A stretch of 64,000 nt of DNA. Source: Escherichia phage vB_EcoM_TH18. The notes below the pieces were generated by a model. That model did no database searches and had not been told where the DNA came from. It worked only from the letters and a program-made list of their open reading frames with translations. The position numbers and the translations under genes were made by a program. Of this stretch, positions 18-26,558 are shown piece after piece; within the stretch, counting starts at the first letter, position 1; each line of letters begins with the position of its first letter. The stretch lies in sequence record ON075799; one strand, given 5' to 3'.

Positions 18-94
18 TGGTGTGACGGACAGGATTCGAACCTGTGACCACCTAGTCTTCAGCAAGGCACTCTACCAACTGAGTTACCGTCACA
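18..94 (-). tRNA. tRNA-Phe (anticodon GAA)
   Basis: Hand-folded cloverleaf on minus strand: 7-bp acceptor, D-stem actc/gagt, anticodon loop CTGAAGA, T-loop GGTTCGAATCC, CCA encoded. Confidence 0.75.
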
Positions 95-98
95 TAAT

Positions 99-175
99 TG
101 GTGGGCGATGAGGGACTCGAACCCCCAAAATTCAGGTTCTAAGCCTGACATGTATACCAATTCCATCAATCGCCC
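99..175 (-). tRNA. tRNA, anticodon UAG (Leu-like decoding) but short variable loop; atypical
   Basis: Minus strand: acceptor gggcgat/atcgccc, anticodon stem tcagg/cctga with loop CTTAGAA, T-arm with TTCGAGT loop, CCA encoded; type-I length (77 nt) despite Leu-type anticodon. Confidence 0.55.
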
Positions 176-189
176 ATCTATATTAACAG

Positions 190-381
190 TTATGGTTTTC
201 CACGATACACAGAAATAGTTTTCCCATTAGCATTGATAACATAAGCGGTCTGATCCTCAGACAAAAACACTTTTTGATCAATGCCGGAAATAGCTATAGA
301 CTTTTGATGAGCACAATACCCAACAATTTTCCCACAAAAAATTTGTTCATCATTTGGAGAGACGACTTTAACTGTTAACAT
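190..381 (-). CDS. hypothetical small protein (63 aa; ORF 190-462 trimmed to internal ATG)
   Basis: Internal ATG at 381 preceded by AGAGGA; the longer ORF would overlap tRNA-Pro. Confidence 0.4.
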   Translation of the reverse strand: MLTVKVVSPNDEQIFCGKIVGYCAHQKSIAISGIDQKVFLSEDQTAYVINANGKTISVYRGKP

Positions 382-423
382 GGTATCCTCTGTACATTTC
401 TGCTTTGATATGTTTATGTTTGT

Positions 424-501
424 TGGTCTGTCCGGTTGGATTTGAACCAACGACCTGGTCATCCCAAGTGACCCGCGCTACCCAAGCTGCGCTACGGACA
501 G
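424..501 (-). tRNA. tRNA-Pro (anticodon UGG)
   Basis: Minus strand: acceptor ctgtccg/cggacag, D-stem gcgc/gcgc, anticodon stem ggtca/tgacc loop CTTGGGA, T-loop TTCAAAT, CCA encoded. Confidence 0.75.
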
Positions 502-585
502 AGAAATGTAGATTTTAATTGTCCCAGAATCTACTAACTGGTATCGCTGGCTAGGTGATATCTGTGACTTGATTAAGTCAAGAAT

Positions 586-677
586 TGGCGGTTCCTGAAG
601 GATTCGAACCTTCGGTGGGGAGATTCATTCCCAACGGCTTAACAGGCCGTCACCATCGACCACTCGGTCAAAGAACC
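586..677 (-). tRNA. tRNA, type II-like (long variable arm), anticodon loop CTGTTAA (GUU?); identity uncertain
   Basis: Minus strand: acceptor ggttctt/aggaacc, anticodon stem acggc/gccgt, extra stem-loop ggga-atgaatc-tccc, T-arm gaagg-TTCGAAT-ccttc, CCA encoded; 92 nt. Confidence 0.5.
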
Positions 678-686
678 TGAATATTT

Positions 687-763
687 TGGTGGATCTGGTT
701 GGGGTCGAACCAACAATCTCTCGATTAAAAGTCGAGTGACTTAAACCATTTGGCTACAAATCC
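687..763 (-). tRNA. tRNA-Lys (anticodon UUU)
   Basis: Minus strand: acceptor ggatttg/cagatcc, anticodon stem ctcga/tcgag loop CTTTTAA, T-arm gttgg-TTCGACC-ccaac, CCA encoded. Confidence 0.7.
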
Positions 764-780
764 GTTAAATTATCTTTAAA

Positions 781-810
781 ATAGCTAATTACTCGCACAT
801 AATTAGCTAT
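781..810. repeat. perfect 10-bp-stem hairpin (atagctaatt / aattagctat) in inter-tRNA spacer
   Basis: Exact inverted repeat with 10-nt loop read directly from sequence. Confidence 0.6.
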
Positions 811-996
811 ACGCAACAACTCTCCAAGGAGAGCACACTAATGATCGATTACGATTATATGACTAAATTTAGACCATCATAAGTGTTTGGCTTACGCCAG
901 TAAAGAGCGGACTGCTCTGGGGTATCGGTAAGATGGTTGCAGCCATCTACCGAAAAATCACACCAAGCAACTAAACAAGCTACATTAAAGATAACT

Positions 997-1085
997 TGGA
1001 GGAGGCTGACAGAATCGAACTGTCACCATATCTCTACAGCGGGACTGGGTTCAAACCAGCTTGTGCACCATGCACCCCAGCCTCC
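997..1085 (-). tRNA. tRNA-Ser (anticodon UGA)
   Basis: Minus strand: acceptor ggaggct/agcctcc, anticodon loop TTTGAAC, long variable arm, T-arm gacag-TTCGATT-ctgtc, CCA encoded; 89 nt. Confidence 0.7.
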
Positions 1086-1156
1086 AAAGATAGCCTCTGC
1101 CGAGGATATACACCCAACAAAGGAGGCGCTCAGGTCAGAAGAAATCTGAGCCTTAA

Positions 1157-1250
1157 TGGAGGAAGATGCCAGACTTGAACTGGCACACCCATTTCTGGGT
1201 TACTATCTCCTTAGCAGGGAGATCCCTTACCAAATTAGGGTTAATCTTCC
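1157..1250 (-). tRNA. tRNA-Ser (anticodon GCU)
   Basis: Minus strand: acceptor ggaagat/atcttcc, anticodon stem tctcc/ggaga loop CTGCTAA, long variable arm, T-arm gccag-TTCAAGT-ctggc, CCA encoded. Confidence 0.7.
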
Positions 1251-1271
1251 AATACCTTAGTAATTAAAAAC

Positions 1272-1361
1272 TGGTGGAGAAGGAGAGAATCGAACTCTCA
1301 AGCCGTTTTACCAGTCAGCACATTTCCAATGTGCTTTCGTCGCCAATCGATTTGCTTCTCC
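1272..1361 (-). tRNA. tRNA-Ser (anticodon GGA)
   Basis: Minus strand: acceptor ggagaag/cttctcc, anticodon stem gcaca/tgtgc loop TTGGAAA, long variable arm, T-arm gagag-TTCGATT-ctctc, CCA encoded. Confidence 0.65.
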
Positions 1362-1370
1362 GTTTTAACT

Positions 1371-1446
1371 TGGCAGGGGATGGTTGATTCGAACAACCGA
1401 TCACGGGGTCAAAGCCCGTTGCATTAGGCCACTATGCTAATCCCCT
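1371..1446 (-). tRNA. tRNA-Gln (anticodon UUG)
   Basis: Minus strand: acceptor aggggat/atcccct, D-stem gcat/atgc, anticodon stem acggg/cccgt loop CTTTGAC, T-loop TTCGAAT, CCA encoded. Confidence 0.7.
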
Positions 1447-1452
1447 TTTGCA

Positions 1453-1527
1453 CGAGAGTGAGGAATAGAACCTCTTAGTCACTGGTTTTGGAGGCCAGCC
1501 TTCACCCAGTGAAGTTACGCTACTCTC
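1453..1527 (-). tRNA. tRNA-Trp (anticodon CCA)
   Basis: Minus strand: anticodon loop CTCCAAA, T-arm with TTCTATT loop, acceptor gagagt/actctc; CCA not encoded. Confidence 0.6.
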
Positions 1528-1535
1528 ATTAAAAA

Positions 1536-2093
1536 CTATTTTCGAAAAGGACTTATGAAAAATGCCAACATCACTCTCTCTCTTGAAAAAGCTCTGTCTT
1601 CAGGAACCACACTCTTCAGTTTCCAACCGACATAAATTCGCCAGTAAAATTGTTTTCCAAACAATCTAAAAGACGGGACAAACGCGAATACACCCCACGC
1701 ATTGTCATTCCACATCAACAAATAGCCTTGTTGGTTATCCTCCACATCAGAGCTTACATGGAGGTTTCCTTTCCACTTTGTCACAGATGTGATTTCACGT
1801 CCAAGTACGTGATAGGAGAAATTGTAGGCTTTATTTCTCCACAACCAAGCAACTCGTTGTAGGTAAACACCAAAACTTCCTATTTTACGGACTTCTTCCC
1901 ATCTCTCTATGTGTCCTCTATCACCGTCTATAGGATTATCATATGTCTCCATCCACCTGAAAATATAAGGCAGATGCCCTGTCTTCTCATTATAGAACGG
2001 AACAACAAAAGGAGCCAGAATAACACAGAGAACCGACATAACTGGGTCAAGAGGTGCTAACAGGATCCACGATAAATATTTTAAGTATCTCAT
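1536..2093 (-). CDS. hypothetical protein (185 aa, aromatic-rich, hydrophobic N-terminus)
   Basis: Long ORF between tRNA sub-clusters; no recognisable motif. Confidence 0.5.
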   Translation of the reverse strand: MRYLKYLSWILLAPLDPVMSVLCVILAPFVVPFYNEKTGHLPYIFRWMETYDNPIDGDRGHIERWEEVRKIGSFGVYLQRVAWLWRNKAYNFSYHVLGREITSVTKWKGNLHVSSDVEDNQQGYLLMWNDNAWGVFAFVPSFRLFGKQFYWRIYVGWKLKSVVPEDRAFSRERVMLAFFISPFRK

Positions 2094-2320
2094 GCAGGAT
2101 CAAGCCTAGATATAATGTACTGGTTTAAATCTGAATATGGGAAGATACTTTCAAAGATAACCTGTTTAAATCTGAAGCCGCACAAACCGAAAAGTACCTT
2201 CTGACACTCACCAAAAGAGCAATCTTTACCAACTTTTATCACAACCGTATCGGCAATCTGCACACTTTCTATCTCTTTAGATTCATGATGCCGTACTATG
2301 ATTACTTTAGAAACCATCAT
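2090..2320 (-). CDS. hypothetical protein (76 aa)
   Basis: ORF whose stop overlaps the start of the downstream gene by 4 bp (translational coupling pattern). Confidence 0.4.
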   Translation of the reverse strand: MMVSKVIIVRHHESKEIESVQIADTVVIKVGKDCSFGECQKVLFGLCGFRFKQVIFESIFPYSDLNQYIISRLDPA

Positions 2321-2445
2321 ACTCGTCCATATTAAAGCCTTCTACTAAAGATAGTAGATGTCTAGGGTTGGACCGCAAACGCAACCCCATGGAATTTGTT
2401 ACGGTCTTCAGTTGACCCAAGCGGATTTCATTGACATCTTTTAAC

Positions 2446-2520
2446 TGGAGCATCCAGAGGGTATCGAACCCTCGACTTCAGCTTGGAAGGCTGTAGTTTT
2501 CCCAATTAAACTATGGATGC
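2446..2520 (-). tRNA. tRNA-Gly (anticodon UCC)
   Basis: Minus strand: acceptor gcatcca/tggatgc, D-stem gttt/aaac, anticodon loop CTTCCAA, T-arm gaggg-TTCGATA-ccctc, CCA encoded. Confidence 0.7.
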
Positions 2521-2525
2521 ATATT

Positions 2526-2601
2526 TGGTGGGAGTGGTAGGCTCTGCCCCTACGTCCTCTCGATTATCGGTCGAGCGATCTACTAACTGATCTACACTCC
2601 C
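2526..2601 (-). tRNA. tRNA-Ile-like (anticodon GAU), atypical T-loop
   Basis: Minus strand: acceptor gggagtg/cactccc, D-stem gatc/gatc, anticodon stem ctcga/tcgag loop CCGATAA, T-stem gtagg/cctac but loop GGCAGAG lacks TTC; CCA encoded. Confidence 0.5.
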
Positions 2602-2665
2602 AAACTGTACTGGCCCAACAACCACGATTGGAGGGTATCGTCACACATCAAAGCCAGTACAGTTT
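2602..2665. repeat. 13-bp-stem hairpin (aaactgtactggc / gccagtacagttt, 38-nt loop) filling the spacer between two tRNAs
   Basis: Exact inverted repeat read from sequence; no T-loop, so not a tRNA. Confidence 0.55.
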
Positions 2666-2669
2666 TAGT

Positions 2670-2759
2670 TGGTGTGCCGTGATAGAGTCGAACTACCCGA
2701 GTCCCTTTCGAGACAGGAGATTTACAGTCTCCCCCGCTACCCCTACGGTCTAACGACAC
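2670..2759 (-). tRNA. tRNA-Tyr (anticodon GUA), type II
   Basis: Minus strand: acceptor gtgtcgt/acggcac (one G-U), anticodon stem ggaga/tctcc loop CTGTAAA, long variable region, T-arm ggtag-TTCGACT-ctatc, CCA encoded; D-arm irregular. Confidence 0.6.
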
Positions 2760-2760
2760 A

Positions 2761-3108
2761 TTAACCTTGTTTGAATTGAACAATATCCGTCGAGAACGGT
2801 TTAGCTGCCTTAATAGGTGCTTTTTCTGAGTTATCTTTTTCGAGTAACTCTTCGTTTTCCTCATCAAAGTAATCAGAAAGCATCTGCTCACCTTTCTCAA
2901 TAACATAACGAGCTATATTTTCTCTGATATTGTCTTTTGTATTCACATTCTTCATCAAATCCCTAAGAACCTGATGAGCTTCAGGAATCATTGCAATCAG
3001 ATTCGTTTTTAAATCTAGGATATTTTTCTCTAACTGAATTGCATTAGATTCCTCTTTCAGAGGACGACCTTTTCCTCTTCTACGTTTTGTAAGCTGCTTA
3101 GTAGCCAT
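2761..3108 (-). CDS. hypothetical protein (115 aa from internal ATG; acidic C-terminal half)
   Basis: ORF 2761-3333 trimmed to the Met at 3108 because the upstream part overlaps tRNA-Cys. Confidence 0.45.
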   Translation of the reverse strand: MATKQLTKRRRGKGRPLKEESNAIQLEKNILDLKTNLIAMIPEAHQVLRDLMKNVNTKDNIRENIARYVIEKGEQMLSDYFDEENEELLEKDNSEKAPIKAAKPFSTDIVQFKQG

Positions 3109-3193
3109 TTTAAAACCCCACTTAATGATATTATCAAATAAAAACATATCTGTCAAGTGGTATTTTAACATATTTACCAAGAAATTGAAAGTT

Positions 3194-3270
3194 TGGAGCA
3201 CGGTGTCGGACTTGAACCGACATATATCTGTTTTGCAGACAGATCCGTAACCAAATTCCAGCAACCGTGC
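3194..3270 (-). tRNA. tRNA-Cys (anticodon GCA)
   Basis: Minus strand: acceptor gcacggt/accgtgc, anticodon stem tctgt/acaga loop CTGCAAA, T-arm with TTCAAGT loop, CCA encoded. Confidence 0.7.
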
Positions 3271-3356
3271 AATAAGTACCCCAGGTAGAGAACCTATAGA
3301 GTGGGTCTTACGAGCCGCGCTGACGATTCTCAAGTTGGGGTTAATCTGGTCGAGGA

Positions 3357-3433
3357 GACAGGATTCGAACCTGTGACCTACGGCTTAGAAGGCCGCTGCT
3401 CTATCCAACTGAGCTACACCCCGAAAATAAGAA
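3357..3433 (-). tRNA. tRNA-Arg (anticodon UCU)
   Basis: Minus strand: canonical D-arm tagctcagttggatagagc, anticodon stem gcggc/gccgt loop CTTCTAA, T-arm acagg-TTCGAAT-cctgt, CCA encoded. Confidence 0.7.
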
Positions 3434-3623
3434 TGCTTTATAGTGTATGGTTACTCAACCTCACTCCAACTTCCACAGTTGGTGCTCTACGAGCATGACT
3501 ACGTTTGAAATCAACGTTGCGCACCGATAGCTTTCTCACGCATTGTATGCCTCATTCCCAACAAATGCTGATCAGACATTTATATCGAATAATATAAGCT
3601 AATACACTATAAAACAAACTTGT

Positions 3624-3720
3624 GGCTGGGTGATGGAATCGAACCACCTATGTATTCAACGGCTTCCCCGTCTATTTTCAGGATTATAAATCCTCGCCCT
3701 TGCCAAAGGGCTTACCCAGC
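3624..3720 (-). tRNA. tRNA-like gene, unusually long (about 97 nt); anticodon loop TTTATAA (UAU?) with about 30-nt insertion before the T-arm
   Basis: Minus strand: acceptor gctgggt/acccagc, D-stem gccc/gggc, 4-bp anticodon stem agga/tcct, extra hairpin acgg-ggaag-ccgt, T-arm ggtgg-TTCGATT-ccatc; CCA not encoded. Confidence 0.4.
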
Positions 3721-3722
3721 AT

Positions 3723-3797
3723 TGGTGCTCGCAGCAGGTTTCGAACCTGCAACCCCCTGCTTACAAGGCAGGTGCTCTACCGTTGAGCTATACGAGC
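3723..3797 (-). tRNA. tRNA-Thr (anticodon UGU)
   Basis: Minus strand: acceptor gctcgta/tgcgagc, D-stem gctc/gagc, anticodon stem cctgc/gcagg loop CTTGTAA, T-arm gcagg-TTCGAAA-cctgc, CCA encoded. Confidence 0.75.
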
Positions 3798-4162
3798 AAT
3801 AAGACATTGCTTCCGATTAACAGCCTTGAGGCTTTACAGACCATATCTTGTGAGCCATAACCTGTGCCAAGGATTTCAGATGATAAACGAAATTTTATCT
3901 TTCAAGAGTCAACTTTCAAGTTTCATCTTTTACATTTAACCATTGACCTTTATTGTATGAACTTTTACTTAGTGGAAACAACAAGGCATCTTCGTGTGCC
4001 TCGCTGCATCTATGTCCTGTATTATCCTCATACATATACGATACATGGTGGGGGATATTTAACCTCCAACCCCCAGGAGGCAAGATGATGTAAACTTCGT
4101 TAATCAAAAGCAATGTTTTAAATTTCAAAACAAAGGAACGATAATGATATTATCAGAGCCTT

Positions 4163-4810
4163 TTAGAGAGAGTGCTCAATCTCAATTTCTGTCTTAGCGT
4201 TTGACTCAGACAACGCAAAATCAACGTTAGACAAGAAATCTTCAATCTCTTCTTCAAGAGAACGAATCTTAGAAGCCAGTTCAAGAGGATCCACAACCGA
4301 TGGTGTGTTCATCATTCGAATAGGAGCTTCCACAGTCTTAATCTGCTCTGCATCTGGCGCTTTATCACGTTGGATATATGGCGCTCTTGCATTTTCAAGT
4401 TTATCTTCCAGAGATTTTTCTTCTTTTGCCAGAAGAAGCTGTGCAGAAGCACGCTGTGCACAAAGTTTGTTTAACAACTCTTGTTTAAAGCAAATCGTCC
4501 GTTTGCGTTCGATTGCCTCAGCAACTGTCATAGACACATTACCAATTTTGACAATTGTCTCAGCATTAGACTTAACAATTTTTGCTTTCAGTTCATCACG
4601 CACTGCCAAGAGGTCTTGCAGACTTTGATAGTCGTTGATCGCAGATTTCTTAAAATCATCAACAGAGCCGATATAACCCGGAATCTTACAATTATTCTCA
4701 GTTCCTTTTGCAATCTTAATACAATCAAGATTGTAGATACGCTTATTGATCTTATCTTCAATTTTAGAGATAGAAGCAAGTGCACGAGTTACGGAAATCT
4801 TAGTAGACAT
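4163..4810 (-). CDS. hypothetical protein (215 aa, predicted coiled-coil, K/E-rich)
   Basis: Long ORF; composition only. Confidence 0.55.
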   Translation of the reverse strand: MSTKISVTRALASISKIEDKINKRIYNLDCIKIAKGTENNCKIPGYIGSVDDFKKSAINDYQSLQDLLAVRDELKAKIVKSNAETIVKIGNVSMTVAEAIERKRTICFKQELLNKLCAQRASAQLLLAKEEKSLEDKLENARAPYIQRDKAPDAEQIKTVEAPIRMMNTPSVVDPLELASKIRSLEEEIEDFLSNVDFALSESNAKTEIEIEHSL

Positions 4811-4883
4811 GCGATCTCTCCTATGTAAATCAGCTTTGATAAAGTAACTATCCAGAAAAACAAAAACTATGTCAAGAAAAATT

Positions 4884-5075
4884 TTAATCTTTTACAGCAT
4901 CTTTTATAGAATCACAAAGATCTTGAACAACATCAGATGTCGGTGACAAAATCATCTCGTCGGCTGCTGCTATAGCATCTGATGCTAAATCAACAAACGG
5001 AGTTGTTACCGCAGAAGTCACTTCAACAGCCGTTATTGTTACTTCGCTTGCAATCTTAAGCAAAGATCCTATCAT
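4884..5075 (-). CDS. hypothetical protein (63 aa)
   Basis: Small ORF downstream of the tRNA-Met gene. Confidence 0.3.
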   Translation of the reverse strand: MIGSLLKIASEVTITAVEVTSAVTTPFVDLASDAIAAADEMILSPTSDVVQDLCDSIKDAVKD

Positions 5076-5151
5076 AATCTCAACCCTCCTGAATATCCGT
5101 GATTCCCTTTATTTAACGACGCTGGCTCACGGTGGCACTCTCGTCAATAAA

Positions 5152-5475
5152 CTATTTTTTAGTTTTCTTACCGTTTTCTACAGAAATGCTTGTTTTCTGT
5201 TTCGCTTCTCGTTCGCGCTTTGTTTTCCCAGTGCGAATACGATATGAAGCAGAAATAACTTCACCACCAATGACACGAGACACAGATTCGTAATACATTT
5301 CAGTATTACCGTCTTCATCTTTGCGTTTTTTCAGAACTGCTACAGTTTGCGTTTTACCACCAAGGCGCACATCGTGCGGTGCAGAATGTGTCTGCGTGGA
5401 TTTTGATCCAAACTGAAAAGGTTGCTTTATCGCCTCGATAGCTGACACCTTTTTAGCAGACTGTTTCTTAGCCAT
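5152..5475 (-). CDS. hypothetical basic protein (107 aa from internal ATG, Lys-rich)
   Basis: Internal ATG at 5475 preceded by GGAGG; Lys-rich termini. Confidence 0.45.
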   Translation of the reverse strand: MAKKQSAKKVSAIEAIKQPFQFGSKSTQTHSAPHDVRLGGKTQTVAVLKKRKDEDGNTEMYYESVSRVIGGEVISASYRIRTGKTKREREAKQKTSISVENGKKTKK

Positions 5476-5527
5476 TAAGTTTTCTCCTCCGAAAACAATA
5501 AACATAGTTTATTTCGTGTGCCACATT

Positions 5528-5604
5528 TGGTGGCCCCTGCTGGACTTGAACCAGCGACCAAGCGATTATGAGTCACCTGCTCTATCCAACTGAGCTAAGG
5601 GGCC
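5528..5604 (-). tRNA. tRNA-Met (anticodon CAU; elongator-type or Ile2-type)
   Basis: Minus strand: acceptor ggcccct/aggggcc (G1-C72 paired), canonical D-arm, anticodon loop CTCATAA, T-arm gctgg-TTCAAGT-ccagc, CCA encoded. Confidence 0.7.
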
Positions 5605-9540: not shown

Positions 9541-9859
9541 CCATATGTCCCCATTTCAGGGACATTATGATCTAATATAATATATATTATATAATATAAT
9601 TTAATATAATACTACGTATTATATATATTATAATATATATATATAATTTATATAAAATACACTAAGTCTTGAAGAATGTCAAGACTTGATTTTAAATATT
9701 TTTGTTGATATGATTCGATTGAGTCGAATCGTATGGTTCGATGATTTCGAATCATAGAGTTCATGTTGTTTTGCCTGAAATCGTGAGTCGATGAGACTCT
9801 TCAGGCAATACGTGAGTGTGTAAGATGCTCACTGCGCTGATAGCTTGTGATCATCTAAC
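9541..9859. promoter_or_regulatory. divergent intergenic control region: about 80-bp near-pure A/T tract (9585-9660) plus short palindromes and TCGA-containing repeats
   Basis: Composition and repeats read directly; lies between the leftward (tRNA/NAD) and rightward (small-gene) transcription units. Confidence 0.5.
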
Positions 9860-12182: not shown

Positions 12183-13013
12183 ATGACAAGTATTTTACAC
12201 ACGACAGGTATTTTACCACACTATCAGAAGGAATATTCTTTCCCTGATTTATCTGGGGATATGTTGCAAATATACGACAAAGTGCAAGGCGAAGTGTCGG
12301 AGCTACAATTTAGTTCAGACCCTGATGATGAGCAAGAGTTTGATAAACAGATTTGTCGTGTAGAAAACGAGCTTATAGAGCTACAATCATTAGCCAAATC
12401 AACAGATATCGAAGACTTAAGGCGACACGTTGAGAATCTTGAAAATTTAGTGTTCGGGCTTTCGCAAGCTATTATAAACATTGGTGAAATTGCTAAAATT
12501 GCCTCTGACAAGTTGCCAGACAACACAGAAGATATTGAAGAAGCGTTGCAGAATATCTGCTATGAAGGAAGTTCTGCTCTCGGTTGTGAATGTAATCTAG
12601 GAAATGCTCTTGAAGAGCGTGGGTGGAACCTGTTCCAAAAAACTTTTGTTTATCGTGTTATTGGTGGTGAGTTTCCTCGGCTCATACAACTTAATGCCCT
12701 TTTTGGAAACAGCCAGGGTGATAATATTGCATTAGGTATTGATGGCTGGTTCTGTTTAAGAGGTAAAGAATTAGCATTTTGTTGTGGCGATGATGTGTTA
12801 ATTCTCAATGCTTATAAACCAGGTGTTGAAATAACAACAAAATTAAATGGTAAGTCCACTAAATTTCACACCAGAGAGTTGGAAGATATTTTCATGGACA
12901 TATTTGATCCTACAGAAGACGAAATTCTTATGTATGAAATGACCAGTGGAAAAAGATATGATATTTTGTCGTGGAGAAATATTTTTGGCAAGAAGAGAAA
13001 GCCTGTAGCGTGA
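12183..13013 (+). CDS. hypothetical protein (276 aa)
   Basis: Long ORF, no recognisable motif. Confidence 0.55.
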   Translation: MTSILHTTGILPHYQKEYSFPDLSGDMLQIYDKVQGEVSELQFSSDPDDEQEFDKQICRVENELIELQSLAKSTDIEDLRRHVENLENLVFGLSQAIINIGEIAKIASDKLPDNTEDIEEALQNICYEGSSALGCECNLGNALEERGWNLFQKTFVYRVIGGEFPRLIQLNALFGNSQGDNIALGIDGWFCLRGKELAFCCGDDVLILNAYKPGVEITTKLNGKSTKFHTRELEDIFMDIFDPTEDEILMYEMTSGKRYDILSWRNIFGKKRKPVA

Positions 13014-13036
13014 TATTTTATCACTGATATTTGTTT

Positions 13037-13064
13037 TCCCTGTGATATTTTTGTCACAGGGAAA
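13037..13064. repeat. 10-bp-stem hairpin ttccctgtga / tcacagggaa
   Basis: Perfect inverted repeat immediately after the 12183-13013 gene. Confidence 0.5.
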
Positions 13065-13273
13065 GTTTCAATAGTGGATATTTTCTTGATACTTTAAATT
13101 CCTACCAGAAATTTAAATTCTGTAAATTTAGAAAACTATTACTTATAGGCGTTTCGACACAATTTTGTTATGAAAGCCTTGTTTTTATATAAAAACCTGT
13201 TTTAGCATGGGTGGTAGGATCACACTCCATACTACCTTTATTCCTACAGATGAGCATCTCCATGTTCGAAAAC

Positions 13274-13458
13274 TCGGTTCTCGATCGAAAATTCATTTTC
13301 CAGATCGTATTTGCTCCTTACGGAGAAAATTTTTTAGGGCTACAAGTTTCAGTTCTCGATCGGTTTTTCGATTTCAAAATCGTATTTGTTTTTTCTTGCG
13401 AAATTTTTCGCACGCTCAGTTCTCGATCGAGTTTTCAAAATCGAAATCGTATTTGCTC
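13274..13458. repeat. iteron-like direct repeats (three units of about 42 bp containing GTTCTCGATCG ... ATCGTATTTG)
   Basis: Three imperfect direct repeats at about 13274, 13350 and 13417, plus a tgcgaaa/tttcgca palindrome between the second and third. Confidence 0.6.
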
Positions 13459-13860
13459 TATAGTGCGAAAAAATTTTTATGGGTATCATAATTCTATCAC
13501 ACACTTAAACGCAAAGCAACATAAAAATTTTTGTTGAATGATAATCATTCTCATTTGCAGAATGACAGGTAGGATCAGTGTCTTATCCTCCCCCGTTGAC
13601 CATCGTCGCCGTAGTTTGAAGTTTATAGCCGTTCTCGGCTTATCTCTTTGTTAGAGATAGATTACCATAATTGATAAAGAAAGCAAGCGTTAATTGTAAT
13701 CTTTACGTTTCTTTACAAATTTATTTTAGACAAACTACCGGCGATCGACCTTCCAACCAGCGCCCTGGTATGTTAGCCCCGCCTTTACGCCGTGGGGATG
13801 GCGTTGCCTCTTCTGTATGTTAGGCATTATAAGCCCAATCCCTGGGCTTGTCAAACATTT

Positions 13861-21986: not shown

Positions 21987-22187
21987 ATGAAACGTTTTAC
22001 TTATGGTGTGGTTGATGGTTATGTATCTAACCGTTTTTACAATACCGAGCGTGGTGCTAAAAATGCGGCTACCCGTGAACATGGCAATAGTGTAAATTTA
22101 CAAGTTGGCTATATTAGCAAAATTAGCGGTATGTTTATTCCGGTTGCTCAACGCGGCATGTATTGCATAAACTGGATGCCAATGTAA
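21987..22187 (+). CDS. hypothetical protein (66 aa)
   Basis: Ribosome-binding site AAAAGGGGTAAAT. Confidence 0.5.
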   Translation: MKRFTYGVVDGYVSNRFYNTERGAKNAATREHGNSVNLQVGYISKISGMFIPVAQRGMYCINWMPM

Positions 22188-22202
22188 AAAGGAGTAATAA
22201 AA

Positions 22203-22394
22203 ATGGATGTATCACAAGTTAGAAAGGTATTAGCAGCGTTACGCTATCACAATCATAGCAAGGTGAAGAATGATCCTGATTATGTTGATTCAAGTCTGGA
22301 GGAAGACACCTTGCAAGCTATAAGCCATATGCAGGAATTGCTTAAGCGTATGACAGAGAAGAACAGATCTGACTATATAGGTGACGAGATCTAA
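22203..22394 (+). CDS. hypothetical protein (63 aa)
   Basis: Ribosome-binding site AAAGGAGTAAT. Confidence 0.5.
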   Translation: MDVSQVRKVLAALRYHNHSKVKNDPDYVDSSLEEDTLQAISHMQELLKRMTEKNRSDYIGDEI

Positions 22395-22490
22395 TCTTTA
22401 CAATCTCGCCTATTGACACCGGATCACGCTTACATTATTATCTATCTTGTAGGGCAAGCAATACCGCAAGCCCACAAAGAGGACAATAAA

Positions 22491-22859
22491 ATGAGCAAAT
22501 CAGCAATTAAAGCACTTGAAAAAGCGCAAAAAGTGATCGCTACTTCCACCACTGGCGCAAGTATTAATCTGATCGCTTACTTGGAAGATGAAACTATCCG
22601 TAAAAATTGGCGTAATACTGATTTGCTGGCTTGCTTATTGATTAATAGTGTTGCTAATGCTTTCCAGTGTGAAACAGCCGAGAGCCTGGAAGAAAACTTG
22701 TTTGACAATATGGATCAAGCCATTGAAACCTATATCCAATCAAATCTGGATAGCTGGAACAGTAAAACATGGCCCGACAGCTTACGCGATACAACTGACC
22801 AACTGATCCGCCTTGCGGTGATGGTTGAACGCGATAACGTTTACAGCCGCACAAAGTAA
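22491..22859 (+). CDS. hypothetical protein (122 aa from internal ATG)
   Basis: Promoter TTGACA-17-TATTAT at 22415-22443; ribosome-binding site AAGAGGA before the ATG at 22491. Confidence 0.55.
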   Translation: MSKSAIKALEKAQKVIATSTTGASINLIAYLEDETIRKNWRNTDLLACLLINSVANAFQCETAESLEENLFDNMDQAIETYIQSNLDSWNSKTWPDSLRDTTDQLIRLAVMVERDNVYSRTK

Positions 22860-22867
22860 GATAGTAC

Positions 22868-22897
22868 AAAGGGCGCTTAATGCGCCCTTTCTTTTTG
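22868..22897 (+). terminator. rho-independent terminator (aagggcgc-ttaa-tgcgccctt + T-run); end of the plus-strand module
   Basis: Hairpin followed by TCTTTTTG. Confidence 0.7.
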
Positions 22898-22929
22898 CCC
22901 TAACAAACATGATAAGTTTTATCTATCAA

Positions 22930-23230
22930 AACACCACACAGAAAGAAAGTGAATAAAACGCGGTATCGAGCTAAACGAGGGTGGGCAATACAACGGCAAG
23001 GCTAAACAATTAAGGCTGTTATAACGCGATTTAGGCCGCTTAAAATCGATCCCCACCACAAACAACACCCACAAAATGACCAAAACGACACAACATGACT
23101 TAAATGATAACCATTCCCAACAACATAAGCATTTTTATGCAATTTGAGTGAATATCTATTTAAATGATAATGACTCTCAACAACAAACTAACACGACCGA
23201 AGCGATTCAATCGCCTACCACAAAATTAAT
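22930..23230. repeat. C/A-rich, G-poor tract with repeated CACCACA(C)A motifs and a 28-bp imperfect direct repeat (about 23098 and 23158)
   Basis: Motifs read from sequence; reverse-complement orientation of the TGTGTGG motifs at 24044-25283. Confidence 0.5.
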
Positions 23231-23284
23231 CACTTGTAAAGAGTAATTTGAAAAAAGCTGCGTAGGTGGCGCGACCGTAGGGAG

Positions 23285-23361
23285 CGACACAATAACGCAG
23301 TAGTAGCCCCTCACCCCTCCTTCCAGTCGCCCCCGGTATCGGGGCAGCGTTATTGTGTCGC
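23285..23361. repeat. 15-bp perfect inverted repeat (gcgacacaataacgc / gcgttattgtgtcgc) around a 47-nt C-rich loop
   Basis: Exact reverse-complement match read from the sequence. Confidence 0.8.
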
Positions 23362-23373
23362 TAAGCGACAACG

Positions 23374-23437
23374 CGTTAACAATTTTGCAAGATTTTATTA
23401 ATACTTTAACTGTTATAATTTTATTGCAAAATTGTTA
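23374..23437. repeat. 16-bp perfect inverted repeat (gttaacaattttgcaa / ttgcaaaattgttaac), 32-bp spacer
   Basis: Exact reverse-complement match read from the sequence. Confidence 0.8.
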
Positions 23438-23444
23438 ACCTACT

Positions 23445-23555
23445 GCGTTATTGTGTCACGTAGTGATTAGTTACATATGTAACTAACAGCTATCACTGCA
23501 AAATTGTGTCACGTAGTGATTAGCTGAGAATCAGCTAACCCGTAAAACGGGCTAA
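23445..23555. repeat. direct repeat ATTGTGTCACGTAGTGATTAG (two copies), each followed by a palindrome (ttagttacatatgtaactaa; agctgagaatcagct), then cccgtaaaacggg
   Basis: Exact repeats and palindromes read from the sequence. Confidence 0.75.
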
Positions 23556-23799
23556 ATTGTGTCCGGTACGGATGAGATAATCTCTCATTAATCCCCGATT
23601 ATTACGCAGTAAATCACCATGAATCACCTGTTTTTAACCCTGTTATTGTGTTCTTGCCCAGGGATAACCGCTTACTATGCGGTTAAATGCTGTATAGTCG
23701 CTACGCGATTAAGCGCGATGCGCTTAACCTGCAAAGCAGGCTTCTAAGTGCCTGAAATGCCAGATCAATTTGGTCACTGCGTGATCATGATTGCGACAA

Positions 23800-23995
23800 T
23801 AATTTGCTTATGATTTGCTATTTATTTGTTTGTAGTTGGTTATAGTTGTTATGGTTTGTTTGTTAATAGTTGCTATAATTTTGCTTTATTTGATTTTATT
23901 TGTTAAACACCCTTTTATCATTCCTCTTACATTTTCGCAATATTTATTTTTGTTATCGTTTTCCCTCATTTCATTTCGTTATTGAAAACAAGAAT
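23800..23995. repeat. AT-rich tract of short phased T/G-rich repeats (GTTAT, TTTGTT)
   Basis: Composition; possible DNA-unwinding or bending element. Confidence 0.4.
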
Positions 23996-24043
23996 TATTA
24001 TCAATGCGCCTTAACAGGCTGACAGGTCTGTTAGTGGGCTAGC

Positions 24044-25283
24044 TCTCTGTGTGGTTATGTGTCGGCTGTTATTGTTAGCTTGCTTATTGTTGTGTGGTGT
24101 ATGTACCAGTTAACTAGTACATTGTGTGGTGCGCATAACGTGTATTATGTTAAATCGCTAAGCCCACAAATCAGGTGACTTGTCAATAACAATAAGTGCT
24201 GTGTGCGGTAGGTCTGACCTATCAGTGTGCCCCTTTGTTGTGTGGTGCTTCCAATGGCTGGTCTGCCTGCTGTCTGTGCTGCGTCAGGAATCGAGGGGAC
24301 TCGATCGCAATAGCTGTAAGATATTTTGTAAAGATTCGTAGTTTTTCTTGACACCCACAATCGTCTGCCTAACCCTTCAGAGATAAATACTTCAGAGATT
24401 TATCTGGGCTTTTTACCCTTCAGGTATAGAGACGTGTGTTTTATCCCTCACTTCTGAGATAAAGCCGTAGATATTTTCACTCTTCACATCATGTGCAAGT
24501 TAATACATGTATGTCTTTACAGACGGGGTGGGGTAACAATCAGGAAGTGGTCTGGCAGTGATAACGCACTGGATAAAAGCTCTGTGTGGATTGTCGATGA
24601 TATTTGTGTGTGTGGGAAATGCTGATAGGCAAGAGATAAGACACTTGTCTCCGGCAGGGGTGGGGTGTGGAAAAGAAATGGGCCTGTCCGACCCATTGTG
24701 TTACAGAGATGAAACGCCTATCTCACCATTGACCAGGTAAGCCAATATCAAGGCCAAATTCGTGACATTCATCCCAGTCAAGACTTTGATTCCAGTTTGT
24801 AACTGTTTGCTCTGTGTGGTGGGTGTGTGATGCTCTCTGTGACTGCTTGGGCATCTTTTTTGTCTGGGATTTCCCGAAGAGAGGTGTGTTGTCATTAAGT
24901 CTTCCGGCAGCCTTTTCACCCTTTTTGACTTGTCTCCCACGGGCATTCCACTGCTCCAGTGTCCTGTAACACATAAAATGATTCTCCTGTAATATCTGGT
25001 GTGGGAATGATAGTGGAGAATGTCAGTCGTGTCAAGTAGGTTGCTCAGAGGCGCTATTATAAAAATTTTTTGGTGGCTTTCTGGGGCTTGTTGTGGGACT
25101 GTAAACAAGCTGTGGAGCCAGATGTGACGGGGCTTTCAGCCATGTTGTGTGTTGATAGCAAATAAGGATAAAATAATCAATATAAATGCGGATAAATGTT
25201 GTTTTATTGCGGTTGTGTGACTAGTGTGTCAATTCTTGATAGGCTATGTCTTGTACATATTTTGTACAATTGTGTGGTGTGTG
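24044..25283. repeat. dispersed same-orientation TGTGTGG(T)(G) motif, at least 7 copies
   Basis: Copies at about 24044, 24087, 24121, 24235, 24580, 24810 and 25268; no convincing ORFs in the region. Confidence 0.6.
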
Positions 25284-25365
25284 GAGTTTGGGTGGCAATT
25301 CCCCAGACGGGGTAGGGTAGGTTATGGTGGGGAGCAGGGGCATGGTTAGCCCCATATGATCAGGG

Positions 25366-25683
25366 TTATGCGTCTGTTTGTTTGAACTGGTCTTTTGAAC
25401 GTATTATATAGCTGCATCCGTATTTTCTTAGCCAGACAAGTTCCCATGGACTATCACTCAGGTTCTTCCTGTTTATCTCTTTTAGCTGGGCAACCGCATC
25501 GTCCCATGATGTGACTTCGAGATAACCGATAAGACAGTCCTCTCCAAAATCTCCGTAATCAAATGTGCATCTGACCTTGGCGATAAACTCTGTTTGTGGG
25601 CTTGTTGGTTTTACAAAAGCCCGGTGAAAGATTTGTTCTGTGCAGTGCTCATTAACCCATCTGATTTGTGTGGTCATAATCAC
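25366..25683 (-). CDS. hypothetical protein (105 aa); last gene of the leftward block
   Basis: ORF; hairpin ggggctaaccatgcccc downstream. Confidence 0.5.
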   Translation of the reverse strand: MIMTTQIRWVNEHCTEQIFHRAFVKPTSPQTEFIAKVRCTFDYGDFGEDCLIGYLEVTSWDDAVAQLKEINRKNLSDSPWELVWLRKYGCSYIIRSKDQFKQTDA

Positions 25684-25686
25684 CCC

Positions 25687-26310
25687 TCATCGTATAATTT
25701 CGCCTCGGAAAACTGTCTCTTGCTCCTGAAGATGCCTTGTCATGTAGTCTTTGATCCGATCATCAACCCATTTAATACGTTCTGGGTTGGTGTGGCAATT
25801 AGCGTTGGTACTTTCCAACCAGTAAGCCGCCTGGTCCGTGGCGAATGGAAAATTCAATGGACGACCCGCAGCTACGAATTGTGCTTGCATCTCCCGAAGT
25901 AAGTTATCCCTTTCTCGCCATGACCAGCGCCATTCTGCATAAGCCTTCAGATTGTTTTTCAGGCCTGTCTGTGTTGAAAACTTATACCCTAAATATTTGT
26001 CAGGGTCATTAAGCCATTTCTGGTAAGCCGTGTAAAACTCATACAGTTTTTCACTTGAAACTTTTATCTTTGTTGCCTGTGTGGGTGGCAGAGGCAGATA
26101 TCTCCAGTGTGTTGGTTCACACACAATACGCGTGTCATCGTGGTAAGCATACTGAAACACACCTTGCCCAATATGAGCACCAACAAACATTTCTTTAGTG
26201 TCTGAACAGAACACCAGAACATCTACAAAATCTTGTGGTAACTTATCGGAACACATTGCCCATGTATCTTGATGATAGGTTTTTAATTCCGCAAAAAATT
26301 TATTTTCCAT
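25687..26310 (-). CDS. hypothetical protein (207 aa from internal ATG)
   Basis: Internal ATG at 26310 with GAGGG ribosome-binding site; avoids overlap with the upstream gene. Confidence 0.5.
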   Translation of the reverse strand: MENKFFAELKTYHQDTWAMCSDKLPQDFVDVLVFCSDTKEMFVGAHIGQGVFQYAYHDDTRIVCEPTHWRYLPLPPTQATKIKVSSEKLYEFYTAYQKWLNDPDKYLGYKFSTQTGLKNNLKAYAEWRWSWRERDNLLREMQAQFVAAGRPLNFPFATDQAAYWLESTNANCHTNPERIKWVDDRIKDYMTRHLQEQETVFRGEIIR

Positions 26311-26312
26311 AC

Positions 26313-26558
26313 CTACACCCTCAAAAATAAGGAAAACAGACAGGCAATCCCACCGAATACACTGACGCAACTTAGAAGAATACCCCTGAGCCTTTTCCAA
26401 CCTTTAACAGAGGCACTTTCCCAGAGTCCACTGACTGCCAATACGAAATTGGCAATCCCAAGAAAGGCTAGTAGTAAATTTAATAGTATATCCATTATCG
26501 GCATCACCCAAACCACATTACTATCCCCAGTACCACGAAAAGAAACCCAAGTAAACAA
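26313..26558 (-). CDS. small membrane protein (81 aa or shorter)
   Basis: Two hydrophobic segments. Confidence 0.4.
   Translation of the reverse strand: MFTWVSFRGTGDSNVVWVMPIMDILLNLLLAFLGIANFVLAVSGLWESASVKGWKRLRGILLSCVSVFGGIACLFSLFLRV

What the first reader, a model, noticed from the sequence alone, without database searches (positions are those of the whole stretch)
24360..24470. Local repeat family CTTCAGAGATA with an embedded 8-bp inverted repeat
CCCTTCAGAGATAAATACTTCAGAGATTTATCTGGG, then ACCCTTCAGG and CTTCTGAGATAAAG, give three copies of (C)TTCAGAGATA(A) within 100 bp, including the inverted pair agataaat / atttatct. It lies between the palindrome core and the TGTGTGG field and is distinct from both.
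Basis: seen in the sequence. Interest (0 to 1): 0.35.

Follow-up and report, generated by a model that had tools for sequence, protein, structure and literature searches.

The report
Repeats flanking a phage terminal-repeat boundary
The short CTTCAGAGATA repeats are real and begin right next to the spot where, judging from three related phages, this phage's linear DNA is cut, so they are most likely part of the signal that guides cutting and packaging of the genome, although this has not been tested.

Summary
CTTCAGAGAT occurs exactly at 24375 and 24390. Degenerate copies lie at 24418 (CTTCAGGTAT) and 24451 (CTTCTGAGAT), all on the + strand. The 8-bp inverted repeat (24381-88 / 24398-405) is present but weak.

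The window is a Vequintavirinae (rV5-like) phage of the Avunavirus group. The repeats lie in its ~2.5-kb ORF-poor region.

Three relatives have mapped genome ends: the Hena1 annotation, KPP-1 by PhageTerm and coverage, and the KP12 record break. Their alignment places the right edge of a ~0.5-kb direct terminal repeat (DTR) at ...GTCYGYC|TAAC. This is always 32 nt after a conserved box, GATATTTTnnAAAGATYC. In the window that edge is 24369|24370, and the predicted DTR is 23906-24369 (464 bp).

Copy 1 overlaps the conserved boundary motif. Copies 1-3 sit in a block 90-100% identical to Av-05, next to stretches of only 30-40% identity. Copy 4 is not conserved. Related same-strand motifs (YTCAGR, GATATTT) recur just outside the boundary in other genera; rV5 has CTCTTCAGG five times.

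Best reading, inferred and untested: a cis-acting terminus-processing or packaging signal. The hairpin is probably incidental. This is a new member of a known kind and of moderate interest.

The parts
23906..24369 (.). Predicted direct terminal repeat (DTR), 464 bp, present once in this assembled sequence.
   Evidence: The left motif YTA|AACAC and the right motif GTCYGYC|TAAC align with the DTR ends of Hena1 (annotated 1-519), KPP-1 (116316-116829 by PhageTerm and 2x coverage, PMC9862379) and the KP12 record break. Identity between the window and Av-05 rises sharply at 23905.
23900..23913 (+). Left DTR boundary motif TTGTTA|AACACCCT. The cut is predicted between 23905 and 23906.
   Evidence: [GT][CT]TA|AACAC is kept in all 10 relatives matched, across four genera, giving DTR lengths of 453-519 bp.
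24290..24305 (+). ATCGAG-GGGA-CTCGAT element (a pair of CTCGA repeats, or a small hairpin) inside the DTR.
   Evidence: CTCGA doublets occur at the same place in Av-05, Seunavirus and Henunavirus.
24320..24337 (+). Conserved 18-bp box GATATTTTGTAAAGATTC.
   Evidence: GATATTTT[GC][TA]AAAGAT[CT]C is present in all 12 sequences from four genera.
24338..24369 (+). 32-nt spacer between the box and the boundary. It contains TTGACA at 24350-24355.
   Evidence: The length is exactly 32 nt in all 12 sequences although the sequence diverges (Hena1 against KPP-1). DTR length elsewhere varies from 453 to 519 bp.
24363..24379 (+). Right DTR boundary motif GTCTGCC|TAACCCTTCA. The cut is predicted between 24369 and 24370.
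   Evidence: Consensus tGTCcGtc|TA.Cac.tcaGA. The boundary equals Hena1 position 519 and KPP-1 record position 116316. The KP12 record is linearised exactly at this point.
24372..24388 (+). Repeat copy 1, ACCCTTCAGAGATAAAT. It overlaps the boundary motif.
   Evidence: It is conserved in Av-05 (ACCCTTCAGAGATAGAT) and is homologous to the Seunavirus sequence TAACACCTCAGACATAGAG.
24388..24404 (+). Repeat copy 2, TACTTCAGAGATTTATC.
   Evidence: The core is identical in Av-05.
24415..24431 (+). Repeat copy 3, ACCCTTCAGGTATAGAG.
   Evidence: family D7. In Av-05 this copy is ACCCTTCAGAGATAGAT, identical over 17 nt to that phage's copy 1.
24448..24464 (+). Repeat copy 4, TCACTTCTGAGATAAAG. It is specific to this lineage.
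   Evidence: It is not alignable in Av-05, and the surrounding 24436-24520 is 30-42% identical.
24373..24414 (+). Weak stem-loop: CCC, a 5-nt bulge, AGATAAAT, a 9-nt loop, ATTTATCT, GGG, followed by C and TTTTT.
   Evidence: It was not called by the terminator scan.
24470..24477 (+). GATATTTT, a second copy of the box core, 101 nt outside the boundary. A further GATATTT lies at 24599.
   Evidence: GATATTT is kept at +119 in Av-05 inside an otherwise diverged stretch. All 10 genomes examined carry one or two + strand copies 25-119 nt outside the boundary.

Best explanation
The CTTCAGAGATA family is the unique-sequence flank of the right boundary of a ~464-bp direct terminal repeat (23906-24369) in a Vequintavirinae phage genome. 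It is most likely part of the cis-acting signal for cutting and processing the genome ends.

Proposed mechanism:
- In replicating concatemers, one DTR copy separates neighbouring genomes.
- The packaging nuclease (terminase) nicks at the two similar boundary motifs: left TTA|AACACCCTT and right GCC|TAACCCTT.
- The 464 bp between the nicks is copied by strand displacement, as in T7-type DTR phages.
- The right nick is positioned at a fixed 32 nt from the 18-bp box GATATTTTGTAAAGATTC, which lies inside the DTR.
- Same-strand repeats just outside the DTR (copies 1-3, then GATATTTT at +101) give the recognition protein a second, asymmetric set of contacts. These mark this boundary and its polarity.
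- Copy 1 is the boundary motif itself. Copies 2 to 4 are lineage-specific duplications of it.

Shown: the repeats are real and clustered; copies 1-3 are under constraint; their position relative to the mapped ends of relatives; related motifs recur in other genera.

Inferred: that this phage has the DTR; that terminase or a partner protein binds these repeats; that the inverted repeat is incidental.
For: (1) Identity of the phage. The window is 100% identical to Escherichia phages 18-1-2, 19-1-2 and 24-2-1, and 81-91% identical to Av-05 (Avunavirus, Vequintavirinae).

(2) Three independent end determinations in relatives fall on the same aligned positions. These are the Hena1 DTR annotation 1-519, the KPP-1 DTR 116316-116829 by coverage and PhageTerm (PMC9862379), and the KP12 record, which is broken exactly at C|TAGC. 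The pattern box-N32-|TA[AG]C recovers these ends to the base and places the window boundary at 24369|24370.

(3) The left motif YTA|AACAC is kept in all 10 relatives matched and gives DTR lengths of 453-519 bp.

(4) The identity profile against Av-05 is 28-46% at 23805-23904, 62-100% (mostly 80% or more) from 23905 to 24425, and 30-42% at 24426-24530. The constrained block therefore starts at the predicted DTR start and runs about 65 bp past the DTR end, covering copies 1-3.

(5) Copy 1 is homologous to the conserved boundary motif of other genera (TA.Cac.tcaGA). Other genera also repeat part of the boundary motif about 31-32 nt downstream: CACCTCAGA twice in Mydovirus, and AACACCT twice in Seunavirus.

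(6) YTTCAGR occurs 29 times on the + strand and twice on the - strand in the 1 kb outside the boundary, summed over 10 genomes. rV5 has CTCTTCAGG five times on one strand against 0.04 expected, four of them in the equivalent arm.

(7) In Bas54, another member of the subfamily, the homologous ~2-kb intergenic region tolerates no transposon insertions (bioRxiv 10.1101/2025.11.20.689424). This fits essential cis-acting sites.
Against: - No read-level or biochemical data exist for this phage or for Av-05. The DTR and the cut position are inferred by homology.
- Some papers report rV5-genus phages as circularly permuted or headful-packaged by PhageTerm. DTR packaging may therefore not be universal in the subfamily.
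- No terminase small subunit or other binding protein has been identified.
- The repeat sequence is not conserved between genera. One Seunavirus-like contig (L021) lacks TCAGA after the boundary, and the two Henunavirus genomes have no YTTCAGR in that kilobase.
- Spacing between copies is irregular (15, 28 and 33 bp).
- Copy 4 is unconstrained.
- Part of the strand bias may come from coding sequence further out and from shared ancestry of the genomes.
Confidence: 0.45

Rival explanations
1. RNA 3' end or intrinsic terminator. The stem-loop 24373-24408 plus the T-run 24410-24414 stops + strand transcripts leaving the DTR, so that they do not run antisense into the converging - strand genes. On this reading the repeats merely form the stem.
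For: The only arm substitution in Av-05 (A to G) keeps a G.U pair on the + strand RNA but would give C.A on the - strand. The GGGCTTTTT tail is identical in both phages. The predicted fold includes the full stem.
Against: The stem is AT-rich with a 5-nt bulge: -8.3 kcal/mol, z -1.2, and 26 of 200 shuffles fold as well. The terminator scan did not call it, and no + strand sigma-70-like promoter was found inside the DTR. No comparable hairpin follows the boundary in Seunavirus, Mydovirus or Henunavirus (z -0.3 to +0.2). This reading does not explain copies 3 and 4 or the cross-genus motif recurrence.
Confidence: 0.12
2. A protein-binding array with a function at the genome end other than packaging. 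Examples are a DNA-entry pause or early-control site like the repeat-dense region at the inner edge of the T5 terminal repeat, or binding sites for a replication or regulatory protein (iterons).
For: In the virion the array would lie 465-570 bp from the left physical end. It is close to a small - strand gene with an 11/12 sigma-70 promoter (25035-25007) and a terminator (24697-24677). T5 has an essential, untranslated, repeat-rich region that straddles the inner border of its terminal repeat (bioRxiv 10.1101/866236). GATATTT also clusters six times at 12885-13077, far from the DTR, so its binding factor need not be the terminase.
Against: Spacing is irregular, there is no adjacent initiator gene, and DnaA boxes are not enriched (9 found against 10.9 expected). 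The most origin-like structure, the nested palindromes at 23283-23457, lies 1 kb away. The fixed 32-nt distance to the mapped end, and the overlap of copy 1 with the boundary motif, point to the cutting event itself.
Confidence: 0.2
3. Mostly non-functional. Only the boundary-proximal motif is constrained, and the extra copies are recent slippage or gene-conversion duplicates in a fast-evolving spacer.
For: Copy 4 is absent from Av-05. The repeat modules are shuffled between close Mydovirus relatives (CAGATGGTG against CAGACAGTG). The repeat sequences differ between genera. L021 lacks TCAGA after the boundary.
Against: Copies 2 and 3 lie in a block 90-92% identical to Av-05, directly next to stretches of 30-42% identity. 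Duplication of the boundary motif downstream recurs in separate genera. The rV5 CTCTTCAGG enrichment is extreme. GATATTT is retained within an otherwise diverged stretch.
Confidence: 0.2

Closest known systems
T7/T3-type short direct terminal repeats and their concatemer-junction processing signals
   Same: A DTR of a few hundred base pairs with fixed ends. PhageTerm called the relative KPP-1 'T7 type'. There are defined sequences at both DTR borders and cis elements flanking the junction. An inverted repeat just outside the repeat recalls the hairpin intermediate proposed for T7 (from my own knowledge of Chung, Nardone and Hinkle 1990; not checked here).
   Different: This is a ~140-kb myovirus with no phage RNA polymerase. 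There is no sequence similarity to T7 pac or concatemer-junction elements. The box-N32-cut architecture and the CTTCAG/GATATTT vocabulary are specific to Vequintavirinae. The terminase-DNA interaction is uncharacterised.
Repeat arrays that position terminase next to the cut site (lambda cosB R sites, P1 pac hexamer repeats, SPP1 pacL/pacR)
   Same: Several short same-orientation repeats flank a specific cut made at a fixed distance. The repeat sequence differs between related phages (comparison from my own knowledge).
   Different: Those systems produce cohesive ends or headful series, not DTRs. Binding is demonstrated there and is not demonstrated here.
T5 Repeat Region 3, the 'injection stop signal' region
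   Same: A large untranslated, essential, repeat-, inverted-repeat- and palindrome-dense region that straddles the inner border of the terminal repeat and is conserved in order among relatives.
   Different: The T5 repeat is 10 kb and carries genes. Its region contains ordered DnaA boxes, which are not enriched here. Two-step DNA entry is not known for Vequintavirinae.
The ~2-kb 'non-coding' region of rV5-like phages
   Same: It is the same locus. It is drawn as a 'non-coding' box in the rV5 genome paper (PMC3606486) and is reported to tolerate no transposon insertions in Bas54.
   Different: In the papers I could search, none of those describing this region places the DTR inside it, defines the boundary motifs, or describes the flanking repeat families.

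Membership tests
Short-DTR (T7-type) genome ends | Fixed physical ends with the same few-hundred-bp sequence at both ends of virion DNA | not testable with these tools
   No reads or virion DNA are available for this phage. The feature is inferred from base-exact alignment to the mapped ends of Hena1, KPP-1 and KP12.
Short-DTR (T7-type) genome ends | Conserved sequence at both repeat borders | tested here: met
   Left border YTA|AACAC in the window and all 10 relatives matched. Right border GTCYGYC|TA[AG]C exactly 32 nt after the conserved box, in the window and 11 relatives from four genera.
Terminase recognition array (cosB / pac-like) | Several short repeats in one orientation next to the cut site | tested here: met
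   Copies at +5, +20, +48 and +81 relative to the boundary, and GATATTTT at -50 and +101, all on the + strand.
Terminase recognition array (cosB / pac-like) | Sequence constraint on the repeats | tested here: inconclusive
   Copies 1-3 lie in a block 90-100% identical to Av-05, while copy 4 is unconserved. Only two lineages of this genus are available: three of the four collection scans found nothing further and one found only Av-05.
Terminase recognition array (cosB / pac-like) | Specific binding by the small terminase subunit, and dependence of cutting on the repeats | not testable with these tools
   This requires EMSA or footprinting and mutant phages.
Intrinsic (Rho-independent) terminator | G+C-rich stem of at least 5 bp, short loop, followed by a T-run | tested here: not met
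   The stem is 8 A-T-rich pairs plus 3 G-C pairs across a 5-nt bulge, and the loop is 9 nt. The scan did not call it. The fold is -8.3 kcal/mol with z -1.2. Only the T-run (24410-24414) fits.
Replication-origin iterons | Three or more regularly phased repeats of about 17-22 bp, with an adjacent A+T-rich unwinding element, DnaA boxes or an initiator gene | tested here: not met
   Spacing is 15, 28 and 33 bp. DnaA boxes number 9 against 10.9 expected in the window, with only one in the region. No initiator gene is adjacent.
Known RNA families (Rfam) | Covariance-model match at or above the gathering score | tested here: not met
   The only hit within 22000-26500 is a sub-threshold mir-19 match at 23371-23443 (28.5 bits against a cutoff of 50). 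Nothing matched at 24360-24470.

The most novel reading that the evidence does not exclude
Vequintavirinae would use a previously undescribed end-forming signal. A terminase complex docks on an 18-bp box inside the DTR and nicks exactly 32 nt away. Duplicated 'pseudo-boundary' repeats on the unique side (here CTTCAGAGATA) set the polarity of packaging and define where the terminal repeat ends. This would account for part of the unexplained essentiality of the 2-kb intergenic region in this subfamily.
Probability: 0.3. Interest if true: 0.55.

Novelty: new member of a known kind. Interest (0 to 1): 0.4.

Why it matters
rV5-like phages are widely isolated and are used as therapy and biocontrol candidates. 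Their ~2-kb non-coding region has been an unexplained box since the rV5 genome paper, and it was recently reported to tolerate no transposon insertions.

This analysis places the terminal repeat inside that region. It defines both borders to the base by comparison across four genera, and it identifies the conserved box, the fixed spacer and the flanking repeat arrays.

The practical gains are:
- Concrete mutations and probes to test how these phages cut and package their DNA.
- A simple rule for orienting and correctly terminating genome records: YTA|AACAC ... box-N32-|TAAC.
- Guidance on which bases must be left untouched when engineering these phages.

Tried and rejected
- **Rfam scan of 22000-26500.** It found nothing relevant.
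- **Sigma-70 promoter reading of TTGACA-N16-TAACCC.** I rejected this. The -10 element is poor, and in 4MG and Henunavirus the TTGAC sits 10 bp further upstream while the box-to-boundary distance stays at 32 nt.
- **Conserved hairpin after the boundary.** Other genera show no stability above shuffles.
- **Origin or iteron reading.** DnaA boxes are not enriched.
- **Genome-wide polar motif (Chi- or KOPS-like).** CTTCAGR is not polar across the window. It is only a local cluster.
- **Mirror-image CTTCAG copies left of the DTR.** The few - strand hits at -113 to -180 sit in an unrelated hairpin context.
- **Search for more relatives of this lineage.** Exact-pattern scans of viral, metagenome and bacterial genome contigs returned only Av-05 or nothing. 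Most of the 120 hits to the 16-mer box in IMG/VR were chance matches, and only about 9 were Vequintavirinae.
- **PBES 02 as a fourth end determination.** Its record is broken at the centre of the large palindrome, not at a DTR border.
- **Boundary analogues in Certrevirus, Septuagintavirus and rV5.** Candidates such as TGCCTGGCA and CAGRCA can be proposed, but no mapped ends support them.

Full report
**1. The observation**

- CTTCAGAGAT occurs exactly at 24375 and 24390.
- One-mismatch or partial copies lie at 24418 (CTTCAGGTAT, preceded by ACC as in copy 1) and 24451 (CTTCTGAGAT).
- All four are on the + strand.

With up to one mismatch, the 11-mer has 6 hits in the 64-kb window against 1.46 expected, and 0 of 100 shuffles reach 6. 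Three of the hits fall within 90 bp. An unbiased scan for 10-mers with at least two further near-copies within 100 bp ranks this site among roughly six clusters that are not low-complexity sequence.

The 8-bp inverted repeat (24381-88 / 24398-405) is real but ordinary. It is one of 51 such repeats in the window and it folds weakly: RNA -8.3 kcal/mol with z -1.2, DNA -5.5 kcal/mol with z -2.5.

**2. Where it is**

The window belongs to a Vequintavirinae (rV5-like) phage. It is 100% identical to Escherichia phages 18-1-2, 19-1-2 and 24-2-1, and 81-91% identical to Av-05, genus Avunavirus.

The finding lies in a ~2.5-kb ORF-poor stretch (22900-25366) between converging gene blocks. The + strand block ends at a terminator at 22868-22890, and the - strand block ends at 25366.

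This is the region drawn as 'non-coding' in the rV5 genome paper (PMC3606486). In Bas54 it is reported to tolerate no transposon insertions, 'suggesting an important functional role' (bioRxiv 10.1101/2025.11.20.689424).

**3. The key result: it abuts a terminal-repeat boundary**

A distant-similarity search starting from the Seunavirus version of the neighbouring sequence hit Erwinia phage Hena1 inside an annotated 'direct terminal repeat'. Three separate end determinations then fall on the same aligned bases.
- **Hena1.** The annotated DTR 1-519 ends ...GGTTGTCCGTC|TAACAGATCAGAC and starts GTGCTA|AACACTTTTC.
- **KPP-1.** A 514-bp DTR at 116316-116829, supported by two-fold coverage and PhageTerm (PMC9862379). 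In the window's orientation it starts ...TTGCTA|AACACAATTC and ends ...GCTGTCCGTC|TAGCACCGCAG.
- **KP12.** The linear record is broken exactly between ...GTCCGTC and TAGCACC....

The pattern GATATTTT[GC][TA]AAAGAT[CT]C, then 32 nt, then |TA[AG]C matches the window, Av-05, three Seunavirus genomes, five Mydovirus genomes and two Henunavirus genomes. It returns position 519 for Hena1 and record position 116316 for KPP-1, both exact.

In the window the boundary is 24369|24370 (CGTCTGCC|TAACCCTTCAGAGATA).

The left border [GT][CT]TA|AACAC is kept in all 10 relatives matched. It gives repeat lengths of 453-519 bp, and 464 bp for the window (23906-24369).

The 32-nt spacer keeps its length although its sequence diverges and the DTR length varies elsewhere.

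**4. Constraint**

In the window against Av-05, identity is 28-46% just left of 23905. It is 62-100% (mostly 80% or more) from 23905 to 24425, and 30-42% at 24426-24530.

The constrained block therefore begins at the predicted DTR start and overruns its right end by about 65 bp. That overrun is exactly the stretch holding copies 1-3 and the T-run.

Copy 4 (24451) is not conserved. However, a GATATTT about 100-120 nt outside the boundary survives in the diverged stretch.

In Av-05, copies 1 and 3 are identical over 17 nt (ACCCTTCAGAGATAGAT).

**5. Relation to other genera**

Copy 1 is the Avunavirus form of a conserved boundary motif. The consensus is tGTCcGtc|TA.Cac.tcaGA, and Seunavirus has TAACACCTCAGACATAGAG.

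Other genera also repeat part of that motif about 31-32 nt downstream: CACCTCAGA twice in Mydovirus, and AACACCT twice in Seunavirus.

The motif vocabulary is shared across the subfamily.
- YTTCAGR occurs 29 times on the + strand against twice on the - strand in the kilobase outside the boundary, summed over ten genomes. All ten carry + strand GATATTT 25-119 nt outside.
- In several genera the two motifs are fused, as CTTCAGGGATATTTTCG.
- rV5 itself has CTCTTCAGG five times on one strand against 0.04 expected, four of them in the equivalent arm.

There are exceptions. One Seunavirus-like contig lacks TCAGA after the boundary, and the two Henunavirus genomes have no YTTCAGR there.

**6. Mechanism**

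The best-supported reading is that the repeats belong to the cis-acting signal for forming the right DTR border. A nuclease nicks at two similar border motifs (window: TTA|AACACCCTT and GCC|TAACCCTT). The right nick is placed 32 nt from a conserved box inside the repeat. Same-strand repeats on the unique side supply asymmetric contacts. In kind, this resembles cosB- or pac-type repeat arrays and T7-type junction processing.

Positions, conservation and recurrence are shown. The existence of the DTR in this phage, the binding protein and the role of each copy are inferred. I put this at 0.45.

Rivals:
- A weak + strand terminator (0.12). One G.U-compatible substitution and a conserved T-run favour it. 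Poor energetics, no scan call and no counterpart in other genera count against it.
- A binding array with another end-related role, such as DNA entry or early control as proposed for the T5 region, or iterons (0.2).
- Largely neutral duplications of the one constrained boundary motif (0.2).

**7. Novelty**

DTRs of ~0.5 kb are already reported for some Vequintavirinae: KPP-1 at 514 bp, Hena1 at 519 bp and Jab at 475 bp. Some rV5-genus reports call permuted ends instead.

In the library I could search, I found no description of the border motifs, the box-N32 rule, or the flanking repeat families.

I file it as a new member of a known kind, a terminus-adjacent recognition repeat, and rate it of moderate interest.

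Noticed in passing
window 24128-24156: GTGGTGCGCATAACGTGTATTATGTTAAAT, inside the predicted DTR, is the most widely conserved element of the region. It is 90-97% identical across Certrevirus, Seunavirus, Mydovirus, Henunavirus and rV5, and 93% identical over 29 nt in the unrelated siphovirus Seurat and its relatives. It resembles a -10 region (TATTAT) with a poor -35. Its function is unknown.
   Followed up: partly
window 23283-23457: Nested perfect inverted repeats of 16-18 nt (GACACAATAACGCAGTAG; GTTAACAATTTTGCAA; AGCGACACAATAACGC) form a large palindromic core about 450 bp left of the predicted DTR. Equivalent palindromes exist in Seunavirus, Mydovirus, Henunavirus and Certrevirus, and the PBES 02 record is broken exactly at the centre of its copy. 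This is a candidate origin or hairpin-forming site.
   Followed up: partly
window 23445-23576: Three copies, spaced 53 bp apart, of GC(A/T)AAATTGTGTC, each followed by a different small hairpin (family D2).
   Followed up: no
window 12885-13077: Six + strand GATATTT motifs within 200 bp, at the 3' end of ORF 12183-13013 and just downstream of it. This is the same core as the conserved box beside the DTR boundary, so the factor that reads GATATTT may act at more than one locus.
   Followed up: partly
window 13275-13460: Three repeats of about 60 bp of the form (G/A)GTTCTCGATCG...TTTTC...ATCGTATTTG. The CTCGATCG core also occurs in the DTR at 24300-24307.
   Followed up: no
window 24723-24974 (- strand), with promoter 25035-25007 and terminator 24697-24677: The 'non-coding' region contains a real small gene of 83 aa. 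It matches phrog_25175 at E about 1e-36 (unknown function) and is 90% identical to Av05_0046. It has an 11/12 sigma-70 promoter and an intrinsic terminator. Its N-terminus shows a sub-threshold resemblance to the ArdC N-terminal ssDNA-binding domain (E 0.0016, below the cutoff). It would lie about 0.8-1.1 kb from the predicted left genome end.
   Followed up: partly
window 24048-25278 (+ strand) and 22930-23200: The right arm is G/T-rich on the + strand: TGTGTGG nine times, and GGGGT(G/A)GGG three times on the + strand only. The left arm is C/A-rich on the + strand. Transcripts entering from either converging gene block would therefore be C-rich and G-poor, as expected of Rho-utilisation sites. 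This is an untested idea for the 'TGTGTGG field'.
   Followed up: no
window 23100-23185; L004 4230-5360; L002 1600-2200; L130 2340-2500: Palindromes resembling the Fur-box consensus (AATGATAATCATTCTC and variants) recur several times in the non-coding region of every genus examined, including the phi92-like Stephanstirmvirinae. The copies in this window are degenerate (TTAAATGATAACCATTCCC and TTAAATGATAATGACTCTC).
   Followed up: no
window 24101-24122: A 22-bp near-perfect palindrome, ATGTACCAGTTAACTAGTACAT, inside the predicted DTR. It is conserved in Av-05 (96% block) but absent from other genera.
   Followed up: no
L130 2290-2310 and 2735-2760 (CR3); L129 2740-2760 (A73); L147 about 2470 and 2945 (rV5): In genera that lack the TAAC border, the aligned left and right border positions share a different short motif: TGCCTGGCA in Certrevirus and CAGRCA in rV5. 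They are spaced about 450-470 bp apart. This suggests that the two border motifs change together between genera, but no mapped ends are available for these genera.
   Followed up: partly
window 18-5604 (- strand): A cluster of 15 tRNA genes. A low-complexity (TA)n-like stretch at 9570-9620 coincides with the start of the partial record of phage 18-1-2.
   Followed up: no
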